NCBI GenBank assembly: GCA_046723735.1
Contig: JBKOVB010000113.1
Coordinates: 2,333 to 66,332, forward strand
Reading direction: 5' to 3'
From: Actinomycetota bacterium
GTDB lineage: Bacteria; Actinomycetota; Actinomycetes; Mycobacteriales; SCTD01
Length of the DNA stretch: 64,000 bases
Positions within the stretch are counted from its first letter, which is position 1, and every line of letters begins with the position of its first letter. The notes beneath the pieces were generated by a model, which did not search any database, had not been told where the DNA came from, and saw nothing but the letters and a program-made list of their open reading frames with translations. Made by a program: the position numbers and the translations under genes. This document shows positions 9,004 through 22,945 of this stretch, piece by piece.

Positions 9004-10308
9004 TCAGCGCAGGCGTGGGCGCAACGGTGCGGCGGACCTGTGCCGCAGACAACCTGCGAGGACCCCGGCGCCGTAGGCCGCCTCGTCGAGCAGGGTGCGG
9101 CCCGCGTACGTCAGCGGGTCCTCCGTCGGCCGCCGGTGCCACCACTCGCGCAGCACGGGGCCGAGCAGCAAGGCGGCGGCCCGGCGGTCCTTGACGGCCA
9201 GCGCCCAGGCGAACGGACCGGCCAGGGCCAGTGCCCGACCTAGCCCCAGGGCGGTGCCGGCGGTGGCACTGCCGATCAGCTGGACCGAGGTGACGGGGTG
9301 GCGCACCTGTCGGTCGAGCCGAGCGGCGGCAAGGGCAGCGGCCGCGGCTCCGAGCAGCGGCCGACGTCCAAGGAGCAGGACCACCACCGCGGTCGGCCAG
9401 GGCGGCAGCACCACGTGGACGAGGTGGTCCGGGTGGCGCGCGGCCAGCGGTGCGGCCGAGGTGCCGTACCGGTACCGCCGCACCAGCCGGTCGCGCAGCC
9501 GGGCCGGCTCGTCGTGCGCCACCACGACCGAGGGGTCGTAGCGGATCGTCCACCCGGCATCGGTCAGCCGCCACACGAGGTCCACGTCCTCGCCGTACCG
9601 CAGGCTCTCGTCGAAGGGCGTGAGCGCAGCGACCCGGACGAGGAGCGCGGCAGTGGGGACGTAGGCCAGCGCCGTGCCCGGCCGGACGGCACCCTCGTCC
9701 GGGCCCAGGTCGAGGGGGGACCGTGGGCCACCCACGACGCGAGGCGCGACGGCCGCCACGGCAGGGTCCTCGAGGTGCCCCCGCAGCGTCGCGAGCCAGC
9801 CGGGCGGCGGGACCGCGTCGCTGTCGAGGAAGGCCACGAATGGCTTGTGCAGCAAGGGGATCGCTGTGTTCCGGGCGGCGGCAGGACCGCCGTTGGGCCG
9901 GTGCACGTAGCGGGCGCTGTGCCGTTCCGCGACCGTGCGAACGGCGGCAGGGTCGTGGGAGCCGTCGTCGACGACCAGCACGTCCGGGTGCGCGAGGGCG
10001 GCCAGGCACCGGTCGAGCTCGGGCGTCCGGTCGCGGACCGGGATGACGACCGTGACGTCGTGCGGTGCGACGGGGAGCGGCCGAGGGTGGCTGGCACCGG
10101 CGTCGAGGAGCGTCCGCGCCAGACGGCGGGCGGCCTCGGTTCCCGCTCCCTGGCGCAGGGCGGCGACGACCGCGGGCCCACGCTCGCTGAGCCGCAGCAT
10201 CCGGCCCGTCGGGGTGAGCAGGGTGCGGCCGCTGTCGAGCCGGCGGGTGCGGGGGTCGAGCACCACCCGCCAGCCGGCCGGGACCGGCGCGTCAGAGGGC
10301 GAGGCCAC
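9004..10308 (-). CDS. mftF: Mycofactocin biosynthesis glycosyltransferase (GT2)
   Basis: VTVVIPVRDR, VLVVDDGS, NGGPAAARN, VAFLDSD, SPLDLGP, YVPTAALLVR, GEDVDLVWRL, YGTSAAPLA.RHP; last gene of the mft operon. Confidence 0.92.
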   Translation of the reverse strand: MASPSDAPVPAGWRVVLDPRTRRLDSGRTLLTPTGRMLRLSERGPAVVAALRQGAGTEAARRLARTLLDAGASHPRPLPVAPHDVTVVIPVRDRTPELDRCLAALAHPDVLVVDDGSHDPAAVRTVAERHSARYVHRPNGGPAAARNTAIPLLHKPFVAFLDSDAVPPPGWLATLRGHLEDPAVAAVAPRVVGGPRSPLDLGPDEGAVRPGTALAYVPTAALLVRVAALTPFDESLRYGEDVDLVWRLTDAGWTIRYDPSVVVAHDEPARLRDRLVRRYRYGTSAAPLAARHPDHLVHVVLPPWPTAVVVLLLGRRPLLGAAAAALAAARLDRQVRHPVTSVQLIGSATAGTALGLGRALALAGPFAWALAVKDRRAAALLLGPVLREWWHRRPTEDPLTYAGRTLLDEAAYGAGVLAGCLRHRSAAPLRPRLR

Positions 10309-11065
10309 CGTCGACCGCGACGTCCGCACCGGTGACACCGCTGCTGTGCGGCCCGGCGAGCCACACGAGGGCCGCGGCGACCTCCTCCGGCTCGAGCAAC
10401 CGCTCGAGCGGCTGCTGCCGTGCGAAGTGCTCGGCGTCGGCAAGGCCGTAGAGCCGGGCGCTCTCCTCGAGCACCGGCGTGCGGGTGGAGCCCGGGCTCA
10501 CCGCGCTGGCCGTGACACCTGTGCCCCGCAGCTCCGCGGCGAGCCCGCGCACCAACCCGTTCACGCCGGACTTGGCGGCGCAGTAAGCCGCGAGCATCGG
10601 CAGCCCGCGGGTCGCGGCCGCGGACGAGACCGCGACGAACCGGCCCGACCGCGGTACGGGGCGGCGCAGGAGCGCGGGGATGGCGACCCGAGCGAGCGTG
10701 ATGACGCCGAGCAGGTCGACGTCGAGGACCGCCTGCAGCGCCTGCTCGTCCTGCTCCCACAGGGGGACGCCGCCGGCGACCACGCCGGCCACCGCGAGCG
10801 CGGCGTCCAGCCCGCCGAAGCGGTCCTCGGCGACCGCGACCGCCTCGCGCACGGCGGCGAGGTCGGTGGTGTCGGCCACCACCGTGGCCACCTGCGGTCC
10901 CGCCAGTGCGTCGAGCTCCTCCTTGGTGGCCAAGGGGTAGGGCAACCGTGGGTCGTCGGCGCACCGGTCGGTGGCGACCACGTCCCAGCCCTCGGCCACG
11001 AGGGCACGAACCGTGGCGGCCCCGATGCCCCGCGCGGCTCCGGTCACGAGCGCGACGCGGCTCAT
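10292..11065 (-). CDS. Mycofactocin-coupled SDR oxidoreductase
   Basis: VALVTGAARGIG, D.C.D...YPLAT.EEL insertion typical of mycofactocin SDRs, YCAAK, PG.T.TP. Confidence 0.9.
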   Translation of the reverse strand: MSRVALVTGAARGIGAATVRALVAEGWDVVATDRCADDPRLPYPLATKEELDALAGPQVATVVADTTDLAAVREAVAVAEDRFGGLDAALAVAGVVAGGVPLWEQDEQALQAVLDVDLLGVITLARVAIPALLRRPVPRSGRFVAVSSAAATRGLPMLAAYCAAKSGVNGLVRGLAAELRGTGVTASAVSPGSTRTPVLEESARLYGLADAEHFARQQPLERLLEPEEVAAALVWLAGPHSSGVTGADVAVDGGLAL

Positions 11066-11712
11066 CCGGTCCACCCCCTCACGAACGCCTCAAGCTCCCT
11101 GACCGCCTCGGTGAGGAGCATCTCGCCCTCGGCGGCCGTCGCGCCCGTCGCATCGCCGAGCACGCCGTTGGAGCTCACCGCGCGTACGCCGCCCTGCCGC
11201 ATCGCGGCCATGAGCTCCGCCACCGGGGCGGTGACCCCGACCGGCCGCTCCGGCCCGACCGGCCGGCCGAGCGCGAGCAGCACCGAGGTCTCGGTCCGGC
11301 CGGCGTGCGCGTCTCCGCCAAAGGACGGCCCCCAGGCGCGCACGTCACGGCCCTCGTCGCGGAGGAGCGTGACCGCCCGGCGTACCGGGTCGACGTTGCC
11401 TCCGTGCCCGTTGAGCAGCAGAACCCTTGCTGCGTCGGCAGAACGGACGAGCTCGACGAGCACGATCCGAAGGGCCTCCTGGCCGATCGAAAGCGTCCCA
11501 GGGAATCCGGCGTGCTCCCCGCTGGAGCCGTACGGCAGAGCGGGCGCGACCAACGTGCCGGTACGACGGGTAGCAAGCCTGTTCGCAAGCACCACCGCCA
11601 CGTCGGTGTCGGTCGACAGCGGCAGGTGGGGCCCGTGCTGCTCGGTGGAGCCCAGCGGCACGACCAGCAGATCCCCTGCGACCGCGGGGGAAACCAGGTC
11701 GGCCAGCTGCAT
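11062..11712 (-). CDS. mftE: Mycofactocin biosynthesis peptidase (creatininase family)
   Basis: PLGSTEQHGPHLPLSTD, YGSSGEH.GFPGTLSIG, NGHGGN, DAHAGRTETS, SSNGVLGD. Confidence 0.95.
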   Translation of the reverse strand: MQLADLVSPAVAGDLLVVPLGSTEQHGPHLPLSTDTDVAVVLANRLATRRTGTLVAPALPYGSSGEHAGFPGTLSIGQEALRIVLVELVRSADAARVLLLNGHGGNVDPVRRAVTLLRDEGRDVRAWGPSFGGDAHAGRTETSVLLALGRPVGPERPVGVTAPVAELMAAMRQGGVRAVSSNGVLGDATGATAAEGEMLLTEAVRELEAFVRGWTG

Positions 11713-12572
11713 CAGAGGGCCTTCCAGCCGGTACGCGCCTCGGAGAGGTAGCCGTGCTTCGCCAGGAACTCGAGCAGCACATCAGCAGCCTCGGCGGCAT
11801 CCACGGGACCCACGATCATGGGCGGGTCGTGGGAGAGCAGCGCCCCGGTGAGCGCCAGCAGACGCTCGCGCGCACTACCGGTGGGCGGCGGCAGGTGGTG
11901 CGGTCGCGGTCGCGACGGGCGGGCCTGCACCACCCGTACGGCGGTCTCGGGCAGCACCGCGCGGACCACCGGGACGGGCGCCTCGGCCGCGGTGAGCGCA
12001 GCCTGCAGCCCTGCTCGGCGCAGCCGCACGCCCGCCTCGACCGAGCACACCGCCGGCAGGGGCACGCGCATGCGCTCCCTTCGGCCGTGGTCGAGGCGGC
12101 GCTCGGCGACGAGGTCCTTCCCCTGCAGCTGCAAGGAGACCAGGCCTGGTGCCTGCACCACGCCCAGCTCCTCCGCGACGAAGGCCGGAAGGGCTCCGGT
12201 CCCGCGGTCGGCAGAGCGGTCGCCGCACAGCACCAGGTCCGGGTGCTCGTCGCCGAGCGACCGGACGAGCACCTTGGCGAGCGCCCGCTCGTCGCACACG
12301 AGGTCGTCGAGGTAGGCGAGGGGGAGATCCACCCGCCGTACCTCGGCACCGAGGGCCAGCGCCTCGCGCAGGGGACTCTCGACCTCGTCGCCACCCGCGG
12401 ACAGCGCCAGAACCCTTGCGTCCCAGGCCTTCGCGAGCACGAGCGCGTGCTCGAGAGCCGCCTGGTCGGCGGGCGAGAGCGCGGCGAGCCGGGCGTCACG
12501 GGTCACGACAGCGGTGAGCGGGTCCACCTGGGCACGCAGGTCGGTGGCCCGGAGCAGGACGACGACGAGCAC
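11712..12572 (-). CDS. etfB: Mycofactocin-associated electron transfer flavoprotein beta subunit
   Basis: LSPADQAALEHAL, LREALALGA, PDLVLCGDRSADRGTG, ERRLD.GRRE..LPAVCSVE. Confidence 0.85.
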   Translation of the reverse strand: MLVVVLLRATDLRAQVDPLTAVVTRDARLAALSPADQAALEHALVLAKAWDARVLALSAGGDEVESPLREALALGAEVRRVDLPLAYLDDLVCDERALAKVLVRSLGDEHPDLVLCGDRSADRGTGALPAFVAEELGVVQAPGLVSLQLQGKDLVAERRLDHGRRERMRVPLPAVCSVEAGVRLRRAGLQAALTAAEAPVPVVRAVLPETAVRVVQARPSRPRPHHLPPPTGSARERLLALTGALLSHDPPMIVGPVDAAEAADVLLEFLAKHGYLSEARTGWKAL

Positions 12573-12575
12573 GGC

Positions 12576-12866
12576 TCAGCCCTGCCGGAAGACGACGCCG
12601 TGGCCGCCGTCGGGGTAGGTCCAGCTGATCGCACCCTCGCCGTTGCAGACCTGATAGCAGGTGCCGCACTCGAAGCACTGCTCGTAGTTGAACAGGATGC
12701 CGCCGTCGGAGGTCGGGGCGAACAGGTTCGCCGGGCAGGCGGTGACGCAGGCCTTGGTCGTGCAGGAGCGGCACACGTCGCTGTCGACCACGATGTGCGC
12801 GCGCTCGGCGACCCGGAACTCGACCGTGTCCATCCGGTCCTCGAAGGCGAGCTCGGTATAGGTCAT
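12576..12866 (-). CDS. fixX: FixX-like ferredoxin
   Basis: CRSCTTKACVTACPA..YEQCFECGTCYQVC..ISWTYPDGGHGVVFRQG. Confidence 0.92.
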   Translation of the reverse strand: MTYTELAFEDRMDTVEFRVAERAHIVVDSDVCRSCTTKACVTACPANLFAPTSDGGILFNYEQCFECGTCYQVCNGEGAISWTYPDGGHGVVFRQG

Positions 12867-14161
12867 CGGAACGCCCTCGCTCCCTTGGCCGCGTCGACGA
12901 CCAGGTCGCGCAGCCGCACCCCGTTGCCCTTCGCGGCAGTGCGCAGCAGCCTCGACCAGGCGGGCTTCGGTGCCGGGTTGACCACGGTGAACAGTCCCTC
13001 GACGACGTCAGCCATCAGGCCGGGGTACTGCTGCTGCACGCGAGGCGACATGACCAGGTCCGGGGCGTGCCGGAGCCGCCTGTGGTCCTGCAGCACGAAC
13101 GTCTTGTGCAACGCCTTCGGGTAGGCCGCGAGCCGCTTCTTGGTGGCGTCGCCGGCCCTGGCCGCCGCCGCCGCGACCCGGCCTGCCTCGAGGCCGGACC
13201 CGATCGCGAAGTTCACGCCCTCGAGCCAGATGCCGGCGGCCAGCGTGAGGCCGGCCGCGTCGCCGGTGACCAGGAAGCCGTCCGCGTGCAGCGGTGGGAT
13301 CTCGTGGTAGCCGCCCTCGGGGATCAGGTGCGCGGCGTACTCCTTGAGCTCGCCGCCGCGCACCAGCGGGGCGATCGCCGGGTGCGCCTTGAGGTCCGCC
13401 ACGAGCTCCTCCGCGCGCACCTTCGCCTGCGCCAGCCCGGCGATGCTCACGACGACGCCGACCGCGACCGAGTCGCGGTTGGTGTAGACGAAGCCGCCGC
13501 CGCTGATGCCACGGGTGCAACCGAGCACCTCGATGTCGACCCCGTGGTCGCCGCTGACCCCGAACCGCTCCTCGATCACCTCCCGGGGCAGGGCCAGCAC
13601 CTCCTTCACGCCGAGCGTGAGGTGCTCGCTCTGGGTGCGCGGCAGCAGCCCGAGCTCCTTGGCGCAGAAGGAGTTCACGCCATCGGCGGCGATGACGACC
13701 TGGGCGCGGAGGTCGCCTTCGGGCCGGTCGGTGCGCACGCCGACGACCTTCTCCCCGTCGCGGAGCAGGCCGGTCACGACGGTGCTCGTGACCAGGTGCG
13801 CCCCCGCCTCCACGGCCTTGCCGGCGAGCCAGCTGTCGAAGTCCGCCCGGAACGTCGTGCACCCGTTGTACGGCGGCCGACCCCACGCCTCGGTCCGGAA
13901 GTCCACCGTCAGGGCCTGGTGCCCGGTCAGCATCATGGTCTGCCGACGCGTGACCCAGCGCTGCACCGGGAGCTCGTCCCACCATCCGGGGAGCACGTCG
14001 TCGAGCACCCTGGGGTAGACGACTCCGCCGTACACGTTCTTGGAGCCGGGGAACGGCCCGCGCTCGACCATGACCACCTTCGCGCCGGCCCGGGCGGCCG
14101 TGAGCGCCGCGGCGGCACCCGCAGGTCCGGCGCCGACCACGACGACGTCCCAGTCGGTCAT
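12863..14161 (-). CDS. fixC: FixC-like FAD-dependent ETF:quinone oxidoreductase
   Basis: DVVVVGAGPAG, ERGPFPGSKNVYGG, FDSWLA, ADGVNS, LGVKEV, GGGFVYTN, EYAAHLIPEGG, GDAAG; ATG 14161. Confidence 0.92.
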   Translation of the reverse strand: MTDWDVVVVGAGPAGAAAALTAARAGAKVVMVERGPFPGSKNVYGGVVYPRVLDDVLPGWWDELPVQRWVTRRQTMMLTGHQALTVDFRTEAWGRPPYNGCTTFRADFDSWLAGKAVEAGAHLVTSTVVTGLLRDGEKVVGVRTDRPEGDLRAQVVIAADGVNSFCAKELGLLPRTQSEHLTLGVKEVLALPREVIEERFGVSGDHGVDIEVLGCTRGISGGGFVYTNRDSVAVGVVVSIAGLAQAKVRAEELVADLKAHPAIAPLVRGGELKEYAAHLIPEGGYHEIPPLHADGFLVTGDAAGLTLAAGIWLEGVNFAIGSGLEAGRVAAAAARAGDATKKRLAAYPKALHKTFVLQDHRRLRHAPDLVMSPRVQQQYPGLMADVVEGLFTVVNPAPKPAWSRLLRTAAKGNGVRLRDLVVDAAKGARAFR

Positions 14162-15129
14162 GGGTTCACCCCCAGCCGGTCGGCGAGCTCCACCAGTAGC
14201 GCGCGCGCGTCCGTGACGAGACCCAGGTCGGCCATGGCGGTCATGGGGCAGCTCGGGTCGGTGTTGACGCTGACGACGTGCCGGGGGCTGCCGAGCCCGC
14301 CGGTGTGCTGCGAGGCGCCCGCGACGCCGAAGGCGACGTAGAGCTCCGGGTCGATGCCTACGCCGGTGGTGCCGATCTGGCGGTCGTGCCCCATCCAGCC
14401 GGCGTCCGTGACGACGCGCGTGGCGCCTGCGCCGGCGCCGAGCCGGGCTGCGACCGCGGCGAGCAGCGCGAAGGTGTCCGTGGGCTCTCCGCCCCTGGCC
14501 ACTAGGCCGGCTCCGCCGCCGAGGACCCGGGTCGCCTCCGCCAGGTCCATCGTCGTCGGGTCCGGCTCGAGCACCTCGAGGCGCTCCGCGTCGATGCCCG
14601 CCGGCACGTCGAGAAGGAGCTCGAAGACCTCGCCGTTGCTCGGCGGCAGCGGGCTGCGGGAGCCGGGCAGCAGCGTCACCACCACCGGGCCGTCGCAGCG
14701 CACCTCGACGTCGAGGCGCCCGGCGAGCCGGCTGAGGACAGCGGTCACGCCCTCCTCGTCGACGCCGGCGAAGGTGGCGTTCGCGAGCAGCGGTCGGTCG
14801 AGGGCGGCCGCCAGGCGAGGGGCGAAGTCGCGCCCGTCCGGGCTGGCGGGCAGGACGAGCATGCGCACGTCCTGCAGCAGCGGCACCAGCGCCTTCGACA
14901 GCCCGGCCGGCGCGGCCCCGACGGTCTCGGCCTGCCAGGCGCGCGGGGCGCCGAGCTCGGCGGCGGCCTGCGCCGTACCCGAGCCGAGCAGCAGCACGCG
15001 ACCGCCGGCCTCGGCCGTGGCCTCGCCGGCTCCCGCGGGCAACGCTCCGTTGCGGGCGATCACAACCGCGAGGCGGCTCAGCTCGAGCGGCTCCTGGGTG
15101 GCGCCTCGATGGACGCTGGTGACCGTCAC
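14158..15129 (-). CDS. etfA: Mycofactocin-associated electron transfer flavoprotein alpha subunit
   Basis: DGRDFAPRLAA, GATRVVTDAGW..RQIGTTG..PELYVAFGVAGASQH..G. Confidence 0.9.
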   Translation of the reverse strand: MTVTSVHRGATQEPLELSRLAVVIARNGALPAGAGEATAEAGGRVLLLGSGTAQAAAELGAPRAWQAETVGAAPAGLSKALVPLLQDVRMLVLPASPDGRDFAPRLAAALDRPLLANATFAGVDEEGVTAVLSRLAGRLDVEVRCDGPVVVTLLPGSRSPLPPSNGEVFELLLDVPAGIDAERLEVLEPDPTTMDLAEATRVLGGGAGLVARGGEPTDTFALLAAVAARLGAGAGATRVVTDAGWMGHDRQIGTTGVGIDPELYVAFGVAGASQHTGGLGSPRHVVSVNTDPSCPMTAMADLGLVTDARALLVELADRLGVNP

Positions 15130-15145
15130 AGGCCACCACCCTCGC

Positions 15146-15209
15146 GCCGATCATGGAGTTGTGGAACGGACGCTGAGCGTGGCGCGCGTGCCACAACTCC
15201 ATGATCGGC
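15146..15209. repeat. REP-like inverted repeat (19-bp perfect arms) inside the mft operon
   Basis: GCCGATCATGGAGTTGTGG (15146-15164) ... CCACAACTCCATGATCGGC (15191-15209). Confidence 0.85.
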
Positions 15210-15223
15210 AGGGAAGGGGGCGG

Positions 15224-17176
15224 TCACAGGGACACCGCCACGCGATGGCCGTCCACCACGGCGGCGTGCGCCCTGCGCGGGGCGAGGCAGTCGCCGACCC
15301 GGTGGACCGCGAACGGCGCGCCCTTGAGCTCGTGCCACAGGTGGTCGTCGGCGCGCTGCTGGCCGGCGACGACGACCCAGTCGACCGTGCGCGTCACGTC
15401 CGTGCCGGTCGGGTGGTGCTGGAACGTGAGCGTGACCCGTCCGCCCTCCTCGCTCGCCGCCATCGGCACGACGTCGGTGAGCTGCCCGATCCCCTTGGCG
15501 TCCGCCTTCACGTTCCAGGTCTCGAGGTCGAGGGTGATGCCCAGGTCCTGACCGACGACCATGCCGGGAGTCGCGACCTCGACGGCGCAGCCGCGGTCGG
15601 CGAGCAGCTCCGCCACCGACGTGGCCGGGTGGAAGCCGAGCTCGTCGAGCACGAGGACTCGCCCCGACGGCTCGACTCGGCCCTCGAGCACGTCGCGGAC
15701 GTCGACCACGCGCGCCACATCCCCTGCCCACCAGGGCTTCTGGGGCACGGCACCCGTGGCAAGCACGACGGCGTCGGGGGCCTCGTCGCGGAGCAGGTCG
15801 GCAGTCGCCTCGCACGACAGCTTCACGTCCACCCCGAGCCGCTGGGCCGCGGCGACGAGGTTGCGCGTGAGGTCGAGGAACTCGGCCCGGCTCGGCACGC
15901 TCGCTGCCGTGGGCACCTGGCCGCCCAGGCGCTCCGACCGCTCGAACAACGTCACGTGGTGCCCGCGCTCGGCCGCCGTGACGGCGGCCTGCAGCCCGCC
16001 CGGGCCGCCGCCGACGACCAGCACCCGCTGCGTCCGCCGGCGCGGCTCGGGGAGCAGCACCGACTCCCGGCCGGTGCGCGGGTTCTCGATGCAGCCAAGC
16101 CAGCGGTTCAGCCCCATCCGGCCCACGCACTCCTGGTTGCAGGACAGGCAGGTGCGGATGTCGGTCGCGGCGCCCGACCGCGCCTTGCGGACGAAGTCGG
16201 GGTCGGCGATCTGGCCTCGGACGACGCCGATCAGGTCGGCCTGTCCGGCGGCGAGCGCGCGGTCCGCCTGCACAGGGTCCTTGAACCGCCCCACCCCGAC
16301 GACCGGCAGCGACACGGCCTCGCGGATGGCGGACGGGATGAACATCGCGTAGCCCGGCGGCACCTGCATCGACGCCTCGATCATGTAGAGCGTGGCGGTC
16401 GCGACCCCGATCGAGGTGTTGATGTAGTCGACCTGGCCGGTGGCCTCGACCATCCTGGCGACCTCGACGGCCTCCTCGATCGTGGTCCCGCCCTCGATGA
16501 GCTCGTCGCCGCACAAGCGCACGCCCAGCGCCTTCTGCGGGCCCAGCACCGCGCGCACCGCGGCCACCACCTCGAGCAGCAGCCGGGCCCGGTTGGCCAG
16601 CGGGCCGCCGTACTGGTCGGTGCGGGCGTTCGTGGCGGGGCTCAGGAAGCCGCGCACGATGGACGAGTGCGAGCACTGCAGCTCCACGCCGTCGAACCCG
16701 CCCGCCATGCAGTGCTCCGCCACCTGCGCGTAGCCCTCGACGACCGAGCGGATCTCGTGCAGCTCCAAGGCCTTCGGCACCTCGCGGAACAGCGGGTCCG
16801 GGATCGGGCTCGGCCCCCAGACGGGCAGTCGGGAGAACATCGACGAGGCCTGCCCGCCGTTGTGGTTCAGCTGTGCCAGCACCGGTACGCCGTGCGCGTG
16901 CACGGCCTCGGTGATGCGGCGGTATCCGGGAATCACCCGCGAGTCGAAGCCGTGGATGAGCTTCTCGTAGGGCCAGTCCGTGACGTGGGTCGAGTGCTCC
17001 TCGGTGATGATCAGCCCGGCGCCCCCGGCGGCCCTGGCCGCGTAGTACGCGGCGTGCTGCGTGGACGGCAGCCCGTCCTGGGCGTAGTTGGTGAGGTGCG
17101 CGCTGAAGACGATTCGGTTGCGAAGGGTCAGGGGTCCCAGCCGCAGCGGCGAGAAGAGATGCTTGTAGCGGCTCAT
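15224..17176 (-). CDS. Mycofactocin-system FadH/OYE family oxidoreductase 2
   Basis: LFSPLRLGPLTLRNRIVFSAHLTNY, DWPYEK, CLSCNQEC..CIENP [4Fe-4S] motif, VLVVGGGPGG, GDCLAPR; ATG 17176. Confidence 0.9.
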   Translation of the reverse strand: MSRYKHLFSPLRLGPLTLRNRIVFSAHLTNYAQDGLPSTQHAAYYAARAAGGAGLIITEEHSTHVTDWPYEKLIHGFDSRVIPGYRRITEAVHAHGVPVLAQLNHNGGQASSMFSRLPVWGPSPIPDPLFREVPKALELHEIRSVVEGYAQVAEHCMAGGFDGVELQCSHSSIVRGFLSPATNARTDQYGGPLANRARLLLEVVAAVRAVLGPQKALGVRLCGDELIEGGTTIEEAVEVARMVEATGQVDYINTSIGVATATLYMIEASMQVPPGYAMFIPSAIREAVSLPVVGVGRFKDPVQADRALAAGQADLIGVVRGQIADPDFVRKARSGAATDIRTCLSCNQECVGRMGLNRWLGCIENPRTGRESVLLPEPRRRTQRVLVVGGGPGGLQAAVTAAERGHHVTLFERSERLGGQVPTAASVPSRAEFLDLTRNLVAAAQRLGVDVKLSCEATADLLRDEAPDAVVLATGAVPQKPWWAGDVARVVDVRDVLEGRVEPSGRVLVLDELGFHPATSVAELLADRGCAVEVATPGMVVGQDLGITLDLETWNVKADAKGIGQLTDVVPMAASEEGGRVTLTFQHHPTGTDVTRTVDWVVVAGQQRADDHLWHELKGAPFAVHRVGDCLAPRRAHAAVVDGHRVAVSL

Positions 17177-19098
17177 CCGTGGCCTCCGGTCACGACGCCA
17201 CACAGCTCGAGAGCACGCCGTCGGCCCTCGAGCACAGCCTCAAGCACGGTCCGCGGCGCGACGCAGTCCCCAGCCCTGAGCGTGCCGGTCGTGTAGAGCG
17301 ACTCCTGAGGCAGCCGGTGGCCGCAGTCGACGACGACGGCGCAGGGCACCTCGCGCCGGACGCCGGTCCAGACGTCTTCGAGCACCGCAGTGCCACTGGA
17401 AGCCTTGCGCAGCAACGACTTCAGCTCGCGCGGCACGCCGGCACGCAGCAGCCGGGTGTTGCAGTCGGCGAGGTCTCCGGTCAGCGACAGCTGGGTGCCG
17501 ACGACCGGGTCCTGGGTCACGAGCCGGACCTCGCGCCCTTCGCGCGCGAGTCGCTCGGCGACGCTCACGCCGACCGGGCCACCCACTGGGTCCAGCACGA
17601 CGACCGGGCCCTCGGGCGCGAGTCCCCGCAGCGCCTGGCGGCTGTCGAGGACCGGGACGTCCAGGACGAGCTCACGGCGCCGCGACCCGGTGGCCAGCAC
17701 GACCGGTCCGGCCCAGGTCTCGAGCTCGGCCTCGGTCACGGTGGTGTCGGTGCGGACGGTGACGCCGAGCCGGTCGCACTCCGCGGCGAGCCAGTCGGTG
17801 AGGGCACGCAGCCGCTCACGGCCGGCGCCCAGGGACGCGTCGTTGACCGCGCCGCCGAGCACCGGGAGCGCCTCGTGCAGCTCGACCTGGCGGCCCTGCA
17901 GCGCCAACACGCGCGCGCACTCCATGCCCGCGGGGCCTCCGCCGACGACCAGCACCGGCTCGCCGCCGCCACCTCGTTGCGTCCGCTCGGCTGCCGCGCG
18001 GCTCGAGCGGATGCAAGGCTCGGGGTCCGTGGTCTCGTGCCCTGACCGGGGCTCGCCGATGCACGACACGAGCGGGTTGCGGGCATCCCGGACGCGGCAG
18101 GCCTGGTTGCACAGCACGCACGGCCGCGGCGTCTCGCCGGTGCGCAGCTTCGCCACGAGCGAGGGCTCGGCGATCTGCGCGCGGGTCATCTCGACCACCT
18201 CGCACACCTGGTCGGCGAGCGCCTTCTCGGCGACCGCCGGCGACACGACAGACCCCTGCAGCACAACGGGAACGCCTGCGACAGCGCGGATCTGCGCACA
18301 CAACTCGCGGTTGAACGCCTCAGAAACGTGGGCGTCCGGCCGGTACGCCGACCCGGCGAACGGCCCGGCCTTCACCACCACGAGCAGGTCCACGAGCCCG
18401 GTCACCGACTCGACAACCGGCACGACGTTCTCAGGGGTGATGCCGGCCCACGGCGCGAGCTCGTCGCAGGACAGCCGCAGCGACAGGAGCTTGTCCCCGA
18501 CGGCCTCGCGTACGGCGGTCAGCACCTCGCGGAGCAGGCGGCCCTTGTCGGTGCCGTAGCCGTCGCCCCGCTGGTTGGTGACCCCGGACACGAACTGCCG
18601 CAGCAGCGAGCGGTCGCCCGCCTCGACCTCGACGCCGTCGCAGCCGGACGCGACCGCGAGCGCGGCCGCGGACGCGAAACCTGCTGTCAGCGCGGCGATC
18701 TCGTCGTCCTCCATGACCTGCGGCATCTCGCGGTTGACCGCGTCCGCCACCGGCGAGGCCCCCCAGAGCGCGGCCTGGGAGTACGCCGAGGAGCCCTGGT
18801 TTCCGGTGTGCCCGAGCGAGGCAAGCACGAGCGCCGGGCCGCACGCGTCCTTGACCGCCCGCCAGCCTGGGCCGCACTCGGACGCGAGCGGCGCCCTCTC
18901 GTAGGGCCAGTCCGACGCGTGCACCGACGCGGTCTCGGTCACGACGACGCCGCACCCGCCGGCCGCACGCGCGGCGTAGTAGGCCACGTGCCGGTCGGAC
19001 AACGCGCGACCGCGGCCGAGGTTGGTCTCGTGCGGCCCGAAGAGCACGCGCGCCGGGGCGGTGACCCCGCCGAGGTCGACGGGCGAGGTGAGCAGCAT
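17173..19098 (-). CDS. Mycofactocin-system FadH/OYE family oxidoreductase 1
   Basis: RVLFGPHETNLG, DWPYERAP, CVLCNQAC..CIGEP, VLVVGGGPAG, GDCVAPR; ATG 19098 overlaps the mftC stop. Confidence 0.9.
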   Translation of the reverse strand: MLLTSPVDLGGVTAPARVLFGPHETNLGRGRALSDRHVAYYAARAAGGCGVVVTETASVHASDWPYERAPLASECGPGWRAVKDACGPALVLASLGHTGNQGSSAYSQAALWGASPVADAVNREMPQVMEDDEIAALTAGFASAAALAVASGCDGVEVEAGDRSLLRQFVSGVTNQRGDGYGTDKGRLLREVLTAVREAVGDKLLSLRLSCDELAPWAGITPENVVPVVESVTGLVDLLVVVKAGPFAGSAYRPDAHVSEAFNRELCAQIRAVAGVPVVLQGSVVSPAVAEKALADQVCEVVEMTRAQIAEPSLVAKLRTGETPRPCVLCNQACRVRDARNPLVSCIGEPRSGHETTDPEPCIRSSRAAAERTQRGGGGEPVLVVGGGPAGMECARVLALQGRQVELHEALPVLGGAVNDASLGAGRERLRALTDWLAAECDRLGVTVRTDTTVTEAELETWAGPVVLATGSRRRELVLDVPVLDSRQALRGLAPEGPVVVLDPVGGPVGVSVAERLAREGREVRLVTQDPVVGTQLSLTGDLADCNTRLLRAGVPRELKSLLRKASSGTAVLEDVWTGVRREVPCAVVVDCGHRLPQESLYTTGTLRAGDCVAPRTVLEAVLEGRRRALELCGVVTGGHG

Positions 19099-20243
19099 CA
19101 GACCGGCGATTCGTTGCAGGGTCGCGCGCTGATGGTCACGGGCACCGGGCCTCCGCGGACGCCGCCCCGGTGGGAGTGGTCGCCGCTCGGCCTGGGTGCG
19201 GAGGAGACCCCGGCGAGGGCCAGCTCGCCGTACCCCTGCACGCACTCGGGGTCGGGACCGTCGAGCGGCAGGCCGGTGAAGAACTTCGCCGCCATGCAGC
19301 CGCCCTGGCAGCTGTCGTAGAACGAGCACGACGTGCAGGCGCCGGCAGACTGCGGCTGGCGCAGCGATGCGAACAGCTCCGACCCCCGCCACACCTGCTG
19401 GAAGCCCCCGGGCTCGCGGACGTTGCCGGCGAGGAACTCGTCGTGGATCGCGAACGGGCAGGCGTACACGTCTCCCACCGGGTCGATGAGGCACACCACG
19501 CGCCCGGCGCCGCACAGGTTCAGGCCGGGAAGCGCTGCACCGTAAGCGGAAAGGTGGAAGAACGAGTCTCCCGTGAGCACCTGCTCCCCGTGGGCGAGCA
19601 GCCAGTCATAGAGCTCACGCTGCTGCTCCGGCGTCGGGTGCAGCTCGTCCCACACGTCCGCGCCTCGTCCGCTCGGCCGCAGCCTGGTCAGCCGCAGCGT
19701 GGCGCCGAAGGAGTCGGCCAGCGCCTTGAAGGCGTCGAGCTGGCCGACGTTGTGCCGGGTGCAGACGACGCTGATCTTCGCGTCCTTGAAACCCGCGTCA
19801 CGCAGGTGCCCGAGCGCCCGCAGCGCCATGTCGAACGATCCCTGCCCGCGCACCGCGTCGTTGACCGCGGCGGTCGCGCCGTCGAGCGAGATCTGCACGT
19901 CCACGTAGTCGCTCGCCGCGAGCCGGGACGCCACCTCGGCGTCGATCCGCACCCCGTTGGTCGAAAACTTCACGCCGACCTTGTGCGCGGTGGCGTAGTC
20001 GACGAGCTCCCAGAAGTCCGCGCGCACGGTGGGCTCGCCGCCGCCGATGTTCACGTAGAACACCTGCATACGCTCGAGCTCGTCGATGACCGCCTTGCAC
20101 TCGTCGGTCGACAGCTCCCGCGGGTCGCGCCGACCCGACGACGACAGGCAGTGCACGCAGGCGAGGTTGCACGCGTAGGTGAGCTCCCACGTCAGGCAGA
20201 TGGGTGCGTCCAGCCCGGTCTTGAAGTGCTCGACCAGCTTCAC
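19098..20243 (-). CDS. mftC: Mycofactocin radical SAM maturase
   Basis: GLDAPICLTWELTYACNLACVHCLSSSG; SPASM domain CGAGRVVC..ACPF..CTSCSFYDSCQGGCMAAKFFTG. Confidence 0.98.
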   Translation of the reverse strand: MKLVEHFKTGLDAPICLTWELTYACNLACVHCLSSSGRRDPRELSTDECKAVIDELERMQVFYVNIGGGEPTVRADFWELVDYATAHKVGVKFSTNGVRIDAEVASRLAASDYVDVQISLDGATAAVNDAVRGQGSFDMALRALGHLRDAGFKDAKISVVCTRHNVGQLDAFKALADSFGATLRLTRLRPSGRGADVWDELHPTPEQQRELYDWLLAHGEQVLTGDSFFHLSAYGAALPGLNLCGAGRVVCLIDPVGDVYACPFAIHDEFLAGNVREPGGFQQVWRGSELFASLRQPQSAGACTSCSFYDSCQGGCMAAKFFTGLPLDGPDPECVQGYGELALAGVSSAPRPSGDHSHRGGVRGGPVPVTISARPCNESPV

Positions 20244-20482
20244 GACGTCAGCATCCCGGTGGTCTCCAGCGTGGCCAGCGCCGTGCGGAACGCCGGCCGC
20301 TCTCCCTCCGGTACGCCGGACAGCGCCTCCTCGACCGACGTGCTGCCGTCGAGCCGCTGCACGACCTCGAGCAGGCGGCGGTCCTTGAGGAACGACAGCC
20401 GCCTGGTGCCGAAGTGGTAGAGCAGCGCGCCGAACGGCTCGGGCCGGACGGACACCTGCGGGTGGAGCGCGAGCACCGGCAT
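20240..20482 (-). CDS. mftB: Mycofactocin biosynthesis chaperone (RRE/PqqD-like)
   Basis: LHPQVSVRPEPFGALLYHFGTRRLSFLK signature; alternative GTG start at 20494. Confidence 0.95.
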   Translation of the reverse strand: MPVLALHPQVSVRPEPFGALLYHFGTRRLSFLKDRRLLEVVQRLDGSTSVEEALSGVPEGERPAFRTALATLETTGMLTS

Positions 20483-20541
20483 GGGACTCGCCACGGCTCG
20501 CCCGTCGCTCGTTGCCGTGGGCAACTCCCTTCTCCTGCTCG

Positions 20542-20649
20542 CTAGTAGACGCCGCACATGCCGTCGATGGACACGTCCTCGACGAGCAGGTCCTCCTCGA
20601 CCAGGGTGTCGTCGACGACCTCGACCTCGAGCTCAGCGGTCTCAGGCAC
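20542..20649 (-). CDS. mftA: Mycofactocin precursor peptide, 35 aa
   Basis: Manual translation MPETAELEVEVVDDTLVEEDLLVEDVSIDGMCGVY*, with AGGAGG RBS and GTG start; conserved IDGMCGVY C-terminus. Below the ORF-track size cutoff. Confidence 0.98.
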   Translation of the reverse strand: MPETAELEVEVVDDTLVEEDLLVEDVSIDGMCGVY

Positions 20650-20693
20650 GGTTCCTCCTAGGGTGACGGCGGTCACAAGCAGGTGGCACCATA

Positions 20694-20712
20694 AACGGCA
20701 CTCGGTGCAACA
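20694..20712. promoter_or_regulatory. Putative MftR operator
   Basis: GGCA-CTCGG-TGCA at 20697-20709 between divergent mftA and mftR; one mismatch to the GGCA-N5-TGCC MftR operator as I recall it from mycobacteria. Confidence 0.7.
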
Positions 20713-20732
20713 AACAAGAGGAGTCCCGCAGG

Positions 20733-21293
20733 GTGAGACCAGGGCGTCCGGCCGTGACGAGCCGCGGCGAGCTCGAGCTCGTCGCGCTGGACCTTTTCGC
20801 CGAGCGGGGCTTCGACAGCACCACCGTCAACGACCTGGCCGAGGCCGCGGGAATCGGGCGCCGCACGTTCTTCCGCTACTTCCCGAGCAAGAACGACGTC
20901 GTGTGGGGCGACTTCGAGGCGGCACTGCAGGGGTTGCGCGAGCGGCTGGCCGCGGTGCCCACCGACGTGCCGCTGCTCGACGGGATCCGGGAGGCGGTGC
21001 TCGCCTTCAACGCCCTGCCCAAGGAGGCCGAGCCGCAGCACCGCGTGCGGATGGCGATGGTCCTGCACACCCCGGCGCTGCAGGCGCACTCCACGCTCCG
21101 GTATGCCGGGTGGCGGGCCGTCATCGCCGAGCACGTGGCCGAGCGCACGGGTGCCCGGCCGGACGACTTCGGGCCGCGGTTGGTCGCGCACCAGGCGCTG
21201 GCCACCGCGGTCGCGGCGTACGAGCAGTGGCTCGAGCATCCCGGCTCGGAGCTGCAGCGCTTGCTCGACGAGGCCTTCCGCTCGCTCGGCTGA
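20733..21293 (+). CDS. mftR: Mycofactocin system TetR-family regulator
   Basis: GRPAVTSRGELE..LFAERGFD.TTV..GIGRRTFFRYFPSKNDVVWGDF; PALQAHSTLRYAGWR. Confidence 0.95.
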   Translation: MRPGRPAVTSRGELELVALDLFAERGFDSTTVNDLAEAAGIGRRTFFRYFPSKNDVVWGDFEAALQGLRERLAAVPTDVPLLDGIREAVLAFNALPKEAEPQHRVRMAMVLHTPALQAHSTLRYAGWRAVIAEHVAERTGARPDDFGPRLVAHQALATAVAAYEQWLEHPGSELQRLLDEAFRSLG

Positions 21294-22281: not shown

Positions 22282-22386
22282 GGCTCCTCCACCCCTCGTC
22301 GGCCGCTGGTCGACGACCCGCGCAGTAGACCGCCTCGAGCACTCCCGGAGCCAGCACCCGGGCGGGTCGACCCGTTGCTGTCGTAC

Positions 22387-22400: not shown

Positions 22401-22410
22401 GTCTGAACCC

Positions 22411-22893: not shown

Positions 22894-22945
22894 ACTCACC
22901 CCACCACGTCGCTCGCAGCCGCTCACGACGCGGCGGGGGCCCCGC

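What the first reader, a model, noticed from the sequence alone, without database searches (positions are those of the whole stretch)
9004..20649. MftD-less mycofactocin operon with two OYE flavoenzymes and a complete ETF-FixC-FixX electron conduit
Seen: the order is mftA-B-C-OYE1-OYE2-etfA-fixC-fixX-etfB-mftE-SDR-mftF, with most junctions overlapping (ATGA/GTGA/TGATG). No alpha-hydroxy-acid-oxidase (MftD) or GMC oxidoreductase (MftG) gene is in the window, and the inserted genes sit where mftD lies in mycobacteria. Established: MftD oxidatively deaminates AHDP to premycofactocin; FMN/[4Fe-4S] enzymes of the TMADH/histamine-dehydrogenase class oxidise amines and pass electrons to ETF; FixCX is an ETF:quinone oxidoreductase. 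Mft-associated OYE and ETF families are defined bioinformatically but, to my knowledge, uncharacterised. Inference: this is either an O2-independent deamination route replacing MftD, or a route that re-oxidises mycofactocinol into the quinone pool in place of MftG.
Basis: partly seen in the sequence, partly recalled or inferred. Interest (0 to 1): 0.85.

Follow-up and report, generated by a model that had tools for sequence, protein, structure and literature searches.

The report
MftD-less mycofactocin operon with ETF
This is a complete gene cluster for the redox cofactor mycofactocin that lacks the usual oxidising enzymes MftD and MftG and instead carries two iron-sulfur flavoenzymes and an electron-transfer chain to quinone; the cluster type is widespread and already named in databases, but nobody has tested what does MftD's job.

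Summary
The minus strand of 9004-20649 holds mftA-B-C, OYE1, OYE2, etfA, fixC, fixX, etfB, mftE, an SDR and mftF. Ten of the twelve genes score above NCBIfam cut-offs, and 7 of 11 junctions overlap. The 98%-complete genome has no MftD and no MftG.

The cluster type is not new. NCBIfam already names both OYEs and both ETF subunits as mycofactocin-associated. A 2024 paper noted Saccharopolyspora clusters that lack mftD and carry the OYE, and S. erythraea is reported to make mycofactocinones.

In 90 MftC-positive genomes the ETF/FixCX module and MftD are complementary: 50 have ETF only, 35 have MftD only, 5 have both, none has neither. This holds across 8 independent tree contrasts. MftG was found in 0 of 55 ETF-type genomes.

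OYE1 and OYE2, however, also sit beside mftD and mftG in Rhodococcus and Prescottella, without ETF and with the same conserved residues. So the OYEs alone do not replace MftD.

Best reading (about 0.45): an OYE (probably OYE2) to ETF to FixCX to quinone chain supplies the oxidising steps that MftD and MftG supply elsewhere. Substrates and electron flow are inferred, not shown.

The parts
20733..21293 (+). mftR, TetR-family regulator, divergent from the operon
   Evidence: TIGR03968 267 bits against cut-off 224.9, matched from residue 24 of the stop-to-stop frame 20667-21293. GTG start at 20733.
20542..20649 (-). mftA precursor peptide, 35 aa, ending in IDGMCGVY
   Evidence: TIGR03969 44.7 bits against 25 and PF23709 41.3 bits. 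GTG at 20649 lies behind AGGAGG.
20240..20524 (-). mftB chaperone (start uncertain: TTG 20524 or ATG 20482)
   Evidence: TIGR03967 105.2 bits against 33. Candidate starts are listed.
19098..20243 (-). mftC radical SAM/SPASM maturase
   Evidence: TIGR03962 661.3 bits against 265. Pfam Radical_SAM and SPASM domains.
17173..19098 (-). OYE1, FMN/[4Fe-4S] flavoenzyme (TIGR03996), 641 aa
   Evidence: 825.5 bits against 627.9. The ATG overlaps the mftC stop as TGATG. Four invariant Cys, C327/C330/C334/C346. Best PDB matches: DCR 137.7 bits, HADH 127 bits.
15224..17176 (-). OYE2, FMN/[4Fe-4S] flavoenzyme (TIGR03997), 650 aa
   Evidence: 997.4 bits against 793.15. ATGA overlap with OYE1. Best PDB matches: NCR 297 bits, DCR 284, HADH 198, TMADH 186.
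15130..15223 (.). 94-nt spacer holding a dispersed palindromic repeat element (a 20-bp perfect stem); an insertion, not part of the machinery
   Evidence: Fold energy -65.7 kcal/mol, z = -7.95. The arm occurs 13 times on 8 contigs of the genome. In 5 of the 10 relatives looked at, OYE2 and etfA overlap instead.
14158..15129 (-). mycofactocin-associated ETF alpha subunit
   Evidence: NF038209 412.1 bits against 240. Pfam ETF and ETF_alpha.
12863..14161 (-). FixC-like FAD oxidoreductase (ETF-QO type)
   Evidence: PRK10015 341.8 bits (cut-off 466) and PRK10157 FixC 319.4 bits (cut-off 610), both matched over full length. ETFQO_UQ-bd 24.8 bits, under its cut-off of 27.7.
12576..12866 (-). FixX-like ferredoxin
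   Evidence: PRK15449 FixX 56.5 bits (cut-off 166). 4Fe-4S dicluster Pfam domains.
11712..12572 (-). mycofactocin-associated ETF beta subunit
   Evidence: TIGR04503 313.8 bits against 200. Best PDB match 4kpu_B at 70.4 bits.
11062..11712 (-). mftE peptidase
   Evidence: TIGR03964 261.6 bits against 172.
10292..11065 (-). mycofactocin-coupled SDR (subfamily 2)
   Evidence: TIGR04504 360.3 bits against 250.
9004..10266 (-). mftF glycosyltransferase
   Evidence: TIGR03965 324.5 bits against 280, matched from residue 60 of the longest ORF. GTG at 10266.

Best explanation
This is an 'ETF-type' mycofactocin operon, one of a widespread class.

MftA (core Val-Tyr), MftB, MftC, MftE and MftF make (glycosylated) AHDP as in mycobacteria. 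This is inferred from family membership.

Elsewhere, two oxidising steps are carried out by MftD (AHDP to premycofactocin) and by MftG (mycofactocinol to the respiratory chain). Here I propose that one electron-transfer chain carries them out. An OYE-type FMN/[4Fe-4S] dehydrogenase takes the hydride from C3 of AHDP and/or mycofactocinol. It passes electrons through its cluster to the dedicated ETF (EtfAB), which is re-oxidised by FixCX into the menaquinone pool. The dehydrogenase is most probably OYE2, whose gene is coupled to etfA.

OYE1 and OYE2 are general partners of mycofactocin systems and also occur together with MftD and MftG. What stands in for MftD/MftG is therefore the OYE plus the ETF-FixCX sink, not the OYEs alone.

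Shown: gene content, absence of MftD/MftG, the phyletic complementarity, and the conserved cofactor motifs. Inferred: substrates, direction of electron flow, and which OYE docks ETF.
For: 1. First survey. Of 401 genomes sampled from the phylum, 46 have MftC.
- 32 of the 46 have MftD.
- 10 have mft-ETF alpha. These are exactly the 10 with OYE1 (9 over the cut-off, plus G368 where it is split in two pieces). All 10 lack both MftD and MftG.
- 2 more MftD-less genomes (G030, G399) carry mftA (ending DGICGVY)-B-C-OYE2-ETF-like-fixC-fixX-mftF.
- The last 2 MftD-less genomes are fragmentary (G199, G351).

2. Second survey. Of 80 OYE1 loci, 58 show etfA and 9 show mftD; none shows both. Genome-wide, 40 of the 45 genomes that are neither type B nor ETF-less 'odd' lack MftD, and 0 of 45 have MftG. 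All 5 ETF-less OYE genomes searched have MftD, and 4 of those 5 have MftG.

3. On an MftC tree of 90 scored genomes: ETF only 50, MftD only 35, both 5, neither 0. There are 8 independent contrasts on starred branches. MftD goes the opposite way in a mean of 7.4 of them and the same way in 0 (median sign-test p 0.016).

4. etfA-fixC-fixX-etfB stays joined to mftE-mftF even where the cluster is split over three contigs (G251, G264). OYE2 and etfA lie 50 nt or less apart in 41 of 47 loci and overlap in 24.

5. Both OYEs keep four cluster cysteines and a GxGxxG for the FAD/ADP domain. Both have lost the GxGxxG of the NAD(P)H domain, as HADH has in the aligned stretch. That fits a protein electron partner rather than NAD(P)H.

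6. The SDR and the other accessory genes are not universal in this cluster type. The genome has no FMN_dh paralogue.

7. Literature. S. erythraea NRRL 2338 makes MMFT-2, MMFT-2H2 and MMFT-3 (PMC9679996, Table 2 passage). Saccharopolyspora mft clusters lack TIGR03966 and carry TIGR03997 (PMC11162802, passages).
Against: - OYE1 and OYE2 coexist with MftD and MftG, without ETF, in 9 Rhodococcus/Prescottella loci and 3 others. No conserved residue is changed there. Their shared function is therefore not simply MftD's, and the model does not say what they do or where their electrons go in those clusters.
- 5 of the 45 genomes have MftD as well. In 2 of them it lies next to a second MftC; in 3 it stands alone. 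One further genome (G445) has a 420-bit hit just below the cut-off.
- 22 MftD-positive genomes manage without MftG, ETF or OYE, so a dedicated re-oxidising route is not obligatory.
- By sequence the OYEs are nearer to reductases (NCR, DCR, BaiCD, bilirubin reductase) than to amine dehydrogenases.
- No biochemical or structural test was possible. The one complex-prediction job was not folded.
- Three ETF-type genomes hold FMN_dh paralogues of 275-301 bits. The same class of paralogue also occurs beside true MftD in other genomes.
- The second survey was picked through OYE1 likeness, and I chose the 50 genomes from it. The completeness of those genomes is not known.
Confidence: 0.45

Rival explanations
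1. The module replaces only MftG. OYE to ETF to FixCX re-oxidises mycofactocinol into the quinone pool. AHDP deamination in MftD-less genomes is done by an unlinked, not yet recognised enzyme such as a transaminase or a general amine oxidase.
For: MftG was found in 0 of 55 ETF-type genomes but in 4 of 5 ETF-less OYE genomes and in 8 of 9 type B loci. MftG is a mycofactocinol dehydrogenase that feeds respiration, and 25% of MftC genomes lack it, which the authors call an open question (PMC11778925, passages). ETF/FixCX is by homology a route to quinone.
Against: It leaves the ETF/MftD complementarity unexplained (50:35:5:0, 8 independent contrasts). 22 MftD-positive genomes lack MftG without acquiring ETF, so ETF tracks the absence of MftD more closely than the absence of MftG. 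No other conserved candidate lies in the clusters, and this genome has no FMN_dh paralogue.
Confidence: 0.2
2. OYE1 and OYE2 are mycofactocinol-dependent reductases, that is ene- or enoyl-CoA-type reductases like DCR, NCR or BaiCD. They use the cofactor as reductant for a metabolic substrate and have no part in making or recycling it through ETF. ETF-FixCX would then work with another, unidentified front-end enzyme.
For: The best sequence relatives are reductases: OYE2 against NCR 297 bits, DCR 284 bits and BaiCD 406.6 bits. The OYEs are present in both the ETF-type and the MftD/MftG-type clusters with unchanged conserved residues. The NAD(P)H motif is lost, so another hydride donor is needed.
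Against: OYE2 and etfA are adjacent in 41 of 47 loci and often overlap. mft-ETF occurs in exactly the OYE1/OYE2-bearing genomes of the sample, 10 of 10. The minimal divergent clusters keep OYE2 with ETF-like genes and FixCX. No other dehydrogenase is conserved next to the ETF.
Confidence: 0.12
3. One reading: OYE1 and/or OYE2 by themselves are the non-orthologous replacement of MftD, acting as an amine dehydrogenase of the TMADH/HADH kind.
For: OYE1 directly follows mftC, where mftD lies in mycobacteria. The gap is 50 nt or less in 55 of 70 loci. In the first sample OYE1 and MftD never co-occur, 0 of 46. The third domain resembles that of HADH.
Against: OYE1 and OYE2 coexist with mftD in 9 of 80 loci, and with MftD elsewhere in the genome in 3 more. 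Conserved residues are the same there. There is no Cys at the covalent-FMN position, and the Cys spacing is of the DCR type. The divergent clusters lack OYE1 altogether.
Confidence: 0.08
4. The EtfAB-FixCX set is a flavin-based electron-bifurcating complex like FixABCX or EtfABCX. It splits electrons from NADH or mycofactocinol between menaquinone and a low-potential acceptor, either the OYE [4Fe-4S] clusters or the radical-SAM enzyme MftC.
For: All characterised EtfAB+FixCX complexes bifurcate (PMC5861303, passages; listing). The best solved relative of mft-EtfB is the bifurcating A. fermentans EtfB, at 70.4 bits against 47.5 for the W3A1 ETF and 41 for the human one. The top EtfA matches are CarE and Thermotoga EtfABCX. 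The nearest solved relative of OYE2 is NCR; that NCR performs a very low-potential reduction is my recollection.
Against: The other bifurcating EtfBs score no better than the non-bifurcating ones, 36-40 bits. Whether the beta subunit binds FAD or AMP could not be tested. Bifurcation does not explain why MftD becomes dispensable.
Confidence: 0.08

Closest known systems
Mycobacterial mycofactocin system mftABCDEF(G)
   Same: mftA (IDGMCGVY), mftB, mftC, mftE, mftF and a divergent mftR, all above curated cut-offs. MftC is about 75% identical to that of a mycobacterial-type cluster.
   Different: There is no MftD and no MftG anywhere in the genome. Six extra genes (OYE1, OYE2, etfA, fixC, fixX, etfB) lie between mftC and mftE.
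ETF-type mycofactocin clusters of Saccharopolyspora, Amycolatopsis, Streptomyces, Frankia, and Acidimicrobiales MAGs (NCBIfam TIGR03996, TIGR03997, NF038209, TIGR04503; noted for Saccharopolyspora in PMC11162802)
   Same: Same gene set and order. 58 of 80 OYE1 loci show etfA, and 55 of those also show fixC. The closest are Frankiales and Mycobacteriales MAGs, 65-76% identical in OYE1.
   Different: Nothing essential. Here a palindromic repeat element is inserted between OYE2 and etfA. The position of the SDR varies among the loci.
Rhodococcus/Prescottella clusters: mftB-C-D-OYE1-SDR-OYE2-E-F-G
   Same: OYE1 is 53-57% and OYE2 61-68% identical, with the same conserved residues.
   Different: They have mftD and mftG and no ETF or FixCX, either in the locus (9 of 9) or in the genome (2 of 2 searched).
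Trimethylamine dehydrogenase with its ETF (Methylophilus W3A1), and histamine dehydrogenase
   Same: Three-domain FMN/[4Fe-4S] enzyme whose third domain lacks the NAD(P)H glycine motif. Aligned over full length with HADH. A dedicated ETF is encoded next to it.
   Different: No Cys at the 6-S-cysteinyl-FMN position. CxxCxxxC rather than CxxCxxC. Lower scores than to DCR and NCR for OYE2. Substrate unknown.
2,4-dienoyl-CoA reductase FadH (1PS9) and 2-naphthoyl-CoA reductase (6QKG)
   Same: Best solved relatives. Same cluster motif CxxCxxxC-x11-C, and an FAD-type GxGxxG after the barrel.
   Different: The NADPH-site GxGxxG of DCR is replaced: PVGGPVG in OYE1 and DELGFH in OYE2. The partner is encoded as an ETF.
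FixABCX / EtfABCX
   Same: EtfA, EtfB, a FixC-like flavoprotein with a weak ETF-QO quinone-domain hit, and a FixX-like ferredoxin.
   Different: Gene order is etfA-fixC-fixX-etfB. FixC and FixX score below curated cut-offs. The set is embedded in a cofactor-biosynthesis operon. Bifurcation was not tested.

Membership tests
Mycofactocin biosynthesis system | MftA precursor with C-terminal Val-Tyr core, MftB and radical-SAM MftC | tested here: met
   TIGR03969 44.7 against 25, TIGR03967 105.2 against 33, TIGR03962 661.3 against 265. The peptide ends in IDGMCGVY.
Mycofactocin biosynthesis system | MftE peptidase and MftF glycosyltransferase | tested here: met
   TIGR03964 261.6 against 172 and TIGR03965 324.5 against 280.
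Mycofactocin biosynthesis system (mycobacterial form) | MftD (TIGR03966), the AHDP deaminase | tested here: not met
   Best whole-genome hit 26.4 bits against 470.85. No full-length PF01070 protein. The 7 closest relatives' genomes also lack it, 0 of 7 (G401-G407).
Mycofactocin biosynthesis system (mycobacterial form) | MftG (TIGR03970), a GMC oxidoreductase | tested here: not met
   Best hit 35.8 bits against 387.45.
NCBIfam mycofactocin system FadH/OYE oxidoreductases 1 and 2 | Score above the curated cut-off, and location in an mft cluster | tested here: met
   825.5 against 627.9 and 997.4 against 793.15. Located between mftC and etfA.
NCBIfam mycofactocin-associated ETF alpha and beta | Score above the curated cut-off | tested here: met
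   NF038209 412.1 against 240 and TIGR04503 313.8 against 200.
FixC/FixX (ETF:quinone oxidoreductase of the FixABCX type) | Curated family score | tested here: not met
   FixC PRK10157 319.4 bits, below 610. PRK10015 341.8, below 466. FixX 56.5, below 166. These are full-length homologues, so 'FixCX-like' is justified but equivalog membership is not.
FixC/FixX | Quinone reduction and membrane association | not testable with these tools
   The only evidence is a sub-threshold ETFQO_UQ-bd hit, 24.8 against 27.7.
TMADH / histamine dehydrogenase class | Cys that forms 6-S-cysteinyl FMN (in the PHC motif) | tested here: not met
   OYE1 has PHE and OYE2 has AHL where HADH has PHC in the printed alignments. 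The role of that Cys is my recollection.
TMADH / histamine dehydrogenase class | [4Fe-4S] motif CxxCxxC-x(n)-C | tested here: not met
   Both OYEs have CxxCxxxC-x11-C, as in DCR.
TMADH / histamine dehydrogenase class | Electron transfer to an ETF | not testable with these tools
   Only co-occurrence (10 of 10) and adjacency (41 of 47) are available. The complex prediction was not folded.
2,4-dienoyl-CoA reductase (FadH) | NADPH-binding GxGxxG in the third domain | tested here: not met
   Where DCR has GCGGIG, OYE1 has PVGGPVG. OYE2 has DELGFH at the place of HADH's non-binding DDDHYY.
Bifurcating (group II) ETF | Second FAD in EtfB in place of AMP; NADH oxidation | tested here: inconclusive
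   The best PDB match is a bifurcating EtfB (70.4 bits), but the other bifurcating EtfBs score 36-40 bits, like the non-bifurcating ones.

The most novel reading that the evidence does not exclude
The mycofactocin-linked EtfAB-FixCX is an electron-bifurcating complex that uses mycofactocinol (or NADH) as its mid-potential donor. It sends one electron to menaquinone and the other, at low potential, into the [4Fe-4S]/FMN of the OYE enzymes. The same machine would both mature AHDP and couple the mycofactocin pool to energy conservation, making the cofactor a bifurcation substrate.
Probability: 0.07. Interest if true: 0.85.

Novelty: new member of a known kind. Interest (0 to 1): 0.5.

Why it matters
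Two gaps in mycofactocin biology are stated in print.
- It is not known what replaces MftG in the roughly 25% of MftC-encoding genomes that lack it (PMC11778925).
- It is not known how mftD-less clusters, such as those of Saccharopolyspora, make a cofactor that needs oxidative deamination (PMC11162802).

This window is a clean example of the class that bears on both gaps. The comparative result obtained here is that ETF/FixCX, not the OYE pair, is complementary to MftD and MftG. That narrows the experiment to a few knockouts and one in-vitro assay in non-pathogenic, culturable actinomycetes.

If the chain works as proposed, it would be:
- a quinone-coupled route for maturing and recycling a RiPP-derived cofactor;
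- a second natural case, after TMADH, of an OYE-type Fe-S flavoenzyme with its own ETF.

Tried and rejected
- Structure and docking. It gives no evidence either way. I then sent neither OYE to any structure tool, so no fold-based active-site analysis was done.
- Expression. No RNA holder was listed for window 11000-20700, and read laying was not used.
- Earlier findings.
- Papers. The MftD paper (JACS 2019) and the 2019 review were not held. MftD's oxygen dependence and the review's occurrence analysis are therefore unchecked. Supplementary tables of PMC11778925 and PMC9679996, which list genomes, were closed and may already show part of the pattern reported here.
- Searches for prior statements. 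'mycofactocin' + 'mftD' + 'electron transfer flavoprotein' gave 0 papers. 'mycofactocin' + 'old yellow enzyme' gave 1 irrelevant paper. In a six-term search on mycofactocin, bifurcation, Fix and ETF, none of the 20 listed papers held the word 'mycofactocin'. The 40 listed of 92 mycofactocin papers since 2022 yielded only PMC11162802. Haft 2011 (PMC3023750) holds neither 'FadH' nor 'electron transfer flavoprotein'.
Its lack of MftD outside the cluster is therefore unverified.
- The SDR as an MftD substitute: rejected, because it is missing from several ETF-type clusters.
- Slips.
  - Alignment A2 held a stray 2-base reference. It was rebuilt as A3.
  - In the first MftC tree, 5 rows were read in a wrong open frame. 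They were refitted by tblastn. Only one search is used.
  - Searches were format or coordinate errors, corrected in the next call.
- Rows left out of the 90-genome table:
  - G152 and G056 (MftD-positive, ETF-negative; not fetched for the tree);
  - G199 and G351 (fragmentary; neither trait found);
  - the second clusters of G431 and G442;
  - L043 and L083 (no mftC in the locus);
  - the 30 of 80 OYE1 loci whose genomes were not searched.

Full report
**What is there.** The window is 70-76% G+C, so open frames alone mean little. I called genes by family match and start-codon context.

On the minus strand of 9004-20649 lie, in order, mftA, mftB, mftC, OYE1, OYE2, etfA, a fixC-like gene, a fixX-like gene, etfB, mftE, a mycofactocin-coupled SDR and mftF. 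A divergent mftR lies at 20733-21293.

Ten of the twelve genes score above NCBIfam's curated cut-offs. These include both OYEs (TIGR03996, 825.5 against 627.9; TIGR03997, 997.4 against 793.15) and both ETF subunits (NF038209, 412.1 against 240; TIGR04503, 313.8 against 200). The FixC-like and FixX-like proteins are full-length homologues but score below their cut-offs: 341.8 against 466 and 319.4 against 610 for FixC, and 56.5 against 166 for FixX.

MftA ends in IDGMCGVY, the canonical core. Seven of the 11 junctions overlap. The one long gap, 94 nt between OYE2 and etfA, is filled by a dispersed palindromic repeat.

**Absence of MftD and MftG.** The genome (3.39 Mb, 176 contigs, 98.3% complete) has no match to TIGR03966 above 26.4 bits (cut-off 470.85). 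It has no match to TIGR03970 above 35.8 bits (cut-off 387.45). PF01070 gives only partial matches of 50 bits or less. None of the seven closest relatives' genomes has MftD either (G401-G407), so an assembly gap is an unlikely explanation.

**What was already known.**
- The four accessory families are curated by NCBI as mycofactocin-associated.
- Haft 2011 (PMC3023750, passages) said that the MftD family occurs in most but not all mycofactocin species.
- The BGCFlow paper (PMC11162802, passages) reported 17 Saccharopolyspora clusters with the IDGMCGVY precursor. These lack the TIGR03966 profile and carry a TIGR03997 gene 'with unknown function'.
- Ellerhorst et al. (PMC9679996, passages including Table 2) detected MMFT-2, MMFT-2H2 and MMFT-3 in S. 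erythraea NRRL 2338.
- Graça et al. (PMC11778925, passages) state that about 25% of MftC genomes lack MftG, and that it is open whether other enzymes take over.
- I found no paper that links mycofactocin with ETF or FixCX.

The architecture is therefore a described but uncharacterised class, and this window is a further member of it.

**First survey.** From 401 genomes drawn evenly from the window's phylum, 46 have MftC above the cut-off. In those 46:
- MftD is above its cut-off in 32.
- MftG is above its cut-off in 10, all of them MftD-positive.
- OYE1 is above its cut-off in 9, plus one genome (G368) where it is split into two adjacent pieces.
- OYE2 is above its cut-off in 12.
- mft-ETF alpha is above its cut-off in 10.

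The 10 ETF genomes are exactly the 10 OYE1 genomes, and all 10 lack MftD and MftG. Two more MftD-less genomes (G030, G399) have a divergent cluster: mftA (ending DGICGVY), mftB, mftC (331 bits), OYE2 (927 bits), ETF-like alpha and beta (116 and 77 bits, below their cut-offs), fixC, fixX and mftF. They have no OYE1, and no mftE was seen. The remaining two MftD-less genomes are fragmentary: G199 has 150 contigs, and G351 is 89% complete with MftC at a contig edge.

Twenty-two MftD-positive genomes have neither MftG nor ETF nor OYE1.

In the 9 other ETF genomes the block etfA-fixC-fixX-etfB-mftE is kept; in one of them the locus ends inside fixC at the contig edge (L011). In two genomes whose cluster is split over three contigs, that block stays with mftE-mftF, OYE1 stays with mftABC, and OYE2 stands apart next to an SDR.

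**Second survey.** A scan of one genome per species with an OYE1 alignment found at least 553 relatives, of which the best 80 loci were kept. I laid the window's proteins on them, together with an MftD and an MftG taken from a mycobacterial-type cluster. The result:
- 58 loci show etfA, and 55 of those also show fixC.
- 9 loci show mftD, 8 of them with mftG.
- No locus shows both etfA and mftD.
- 13 loci show neither. Ten of these are cut by a contig end. The other three (L050, L072, L098) are 'odd': they have full flanks but no ETF and no mftD.

The 9 mftD loci are Rhodococcus and Prescottella. Their order is mftB-C-D-OYE1-SDR-OYE2-E-F-G, contiguous in R. opacus. So OYE1 and OYE2 do coexist with MftD and MftG, which the first sample had not shown.

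I then searched 50 of the 80 genomes whole. I chose them to spread taxa and to include all the odd ones. MftD is above its cut-off in 10:
- both type B controls;
- all three 'odd' genomes, which have no mft-ETF anywhere;
- 5 of the other 45. Two of these five have a second MftC beside the MftD, and three have a lone MftD.

One further genome (G445) has a 420-bit hit just below the cut-off. MftG is above its cut-off in 4 of the 50, all of them ETF-less, and in 0 of the 45.

**Independence.** On a FastTree of MftC I scored 90 genomes for both traits. The counts are ETF only 50, MftD only 35, both 5, neither 0. There are 8 phylogenetically independent pairs on well-supported branches that differ in ETF. 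MftD goes the opposite way in a mean of 7.4 of them and never the same way (median sign-test p 0.016).

On a concatenated MftC+OYE1+OYE2 tree of 70 OYE-bearing clusters, the ETF-less state needs two changes.

Limits of this analysis:
- It is a gene tree built with a fast method.
- The second set was selected through OYE1 likeness.
- The completeness of those genomes is not given.
- Rows were left out, as listed under Tried and rejected.

**The OYE proteins.**
- Both keep four cysteines spaced CxxCxxxC-x11-C, as in 2,4-dienoyl-CoA reductase, and a GxGxxG after the barrel. The cysteines are invariant in 9 OYE1 sequences, and in OYE2 three are invariant and one is at least 90% conserved across 26 sequences.
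- In both, the glycine motif of DCR's NADPH domain is lost. The stretch aligns with the non-binding one of histamine dehydrogenase.
- Neither has a Cys where HADH has its PHC motif.
- The solved relatives of OYE2 rank NCR 297 bits, DCR 284, HADH 198, TMADH 186. Those of OYE1 rank DCR 138, HADH 127 and 125, NCR 121.

They are therefore three-domain Fe-S flavoenzymes that probably do not use NAD(P)H at the usual site. They are not members of the TMADH/HADH class by the features I could test.

Of 177 OYE1 positions that are at least 95% conserved in 69 ETF-type sequences, none is consistently different in the 12 sequences from ETF-less, MftD-bearing clusters. For OYE2 the figure is 3 of 327, all conservative. 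The OYEs therefore most probably do the same chemistry in both settings.

**The ETF and FixCX.**
- The best solved relative of mft-EtfB is the bifurcating A. fermentans EtfB (70.4 bits). The TMADH partner ETF scores 47.5 bits, and all others score 36-41 bits, whether bifurcating or not.
- The top EtfA matches are CarE, Thermotoga EtfABCX and A. fermentans, at 90-94 bits. Paracoccus follows closely at 88 bits. This does not settle the ETF type.
- OYE2 and etfA lie within 50 nt of each other in 41 of 47 loci and overlap in 24. Start codons were assigned by rule.

**Synthesis.**
- Shown: the cluster type exists in hundreds of species. It lacks MftD and MftG. Across the phylum a mycofactocin genome has either MftD or the ETF/FixCX module, rarely both and never neither.
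- From the literature: at least one host genus of this type makes authentic mycofactocinones.
- Inferred: the module makes MftD dispensable.

An ETF and FixCX only carry electrons, and the only conserved dehydrogenase candidates next to them are the OYEs. The most economical mechanism is therefore OYE (probably OYE2, the one kept in the minimal divergent clusters and coupled to etfA), then ETF, then FixCX, then menaquinone.

AHDP and/or mycofactocinol would be the hydride donor. The two molecules differ only in NH2 against OH at the carbon that is oxidised (structures as given in PMC8728441, and PMC7491314).

That MftG is absent from all 55 ETF-type genomes, but present in 4 of 5 ETF-less OYE genomes, suggests that the same chain also does MftG's job. 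The model does not explain what OYE1 and OYE2 do in Rhodococcus-type clusters or where their electrons go there. This is the main reason for a confidence of only about 0.45.

**Rivals.**
- The module replaces MftG only (0.2).
- The OYEs are mycofactocinol-dependent reductases unconnected with maturation (0.12).
- The OYEs alone replace MftD (0.08).
- The complex is bifurcating (0.08).

**Verdict.** The complementary element is ETF/FixCX rather than the OYE pair. The TMADH analogy is functional at best. The class was already annotated and partly noted in print. It is ordinary as a sequence feature. It is of moderate interest as a sharply testable answer to two open questions about mycofactocin.

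Noticed in passing
window 15130-15223: The OYE2-etfA spacer is a dispersed palindromic repeat with a 20-bp perfect stem (-65.7 kcal/mol, z = -7.95). Its 16-base arm occurs 13 times on 8 contigs of the genome, including three other complete paired copies. The closest relative (L025) has a similar hairpin at the same place, whereas five other relatives have overlapping OYE2 and etfA. It looks like a REP- or MITE-like insertion inside an operon.
   Followed up: partly
L023 (G030:C13:1-20000) and L024 (G399:C6): A divergent, minimal mycofactocin-like cluster: mftA ending DGICGVY, mftB, mftC (314-331 bits), OYE2 (about 930 bits), ETF-like alpha and beta below cut-offs, fixC, fixX and mftF. There is no OYE1 and no MftD, and no mftE was detected. 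L023 also holds a truncated Zn-ADH fragment upstream.
   Followed up: partly
L022 13321-15304 (G368) and L021 6235-8460 (G122): OYE1 of G368 is split into two adjacent frames (residues 1-177 and 179-632), either a frameshift or a true split. OYE1 of G122 carries an insertion of roughly 50 residues, a repetitive Pro/Ala/Asp-rich stretch, between the Fe-S motif and the FAD domain.
   Followed up: no
L113 (G443:C17:1-6398): In a Frankiaceae MAG with an ETF-type cluster, a lone mftD on another contig has its own divergent mftR-like regulator (53% identical to the window's MftR).
   Followed up: no
window 1358-3109 (+): One ORF joins a nitroreductase-family domain (119 bits) to a DBI_PRT phosphoribosyltransferase domain (233 bits). 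By recollection this resembles a BluB-CobT-type fusion for the lower ligand of cobamides.
   Followed up: no
window 21298-24394: Next to mftR lies a 607-aa minus-strand ORF with no Pfam or NCBIfam match. It overlaps the 5' part of a plus-strand FAD-binding protein (PRK07121.1-1, 874 bits, matched from residue 80). The true gene boundaries there are unresolved.
   Followed up: no
window 28146-29189 (+) and 30352-32067 (+): An HTTM-domain protein (58.6 bits), and a luciferase-like monooxygenase whose domain starts only at residue 301 of a 571-aa ORF. The long N-terminal part is unassigned, or the start is over-called.
   Followed up: no
G139:C1:4481-10584 and 5978863-5984966: Identical MftC, MftD and MftG matches at both ends of a single-contig genome. 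This is probably an un-trimmed overlap of a circular assembly rather than a duplicated cluster.
   Followed up: no
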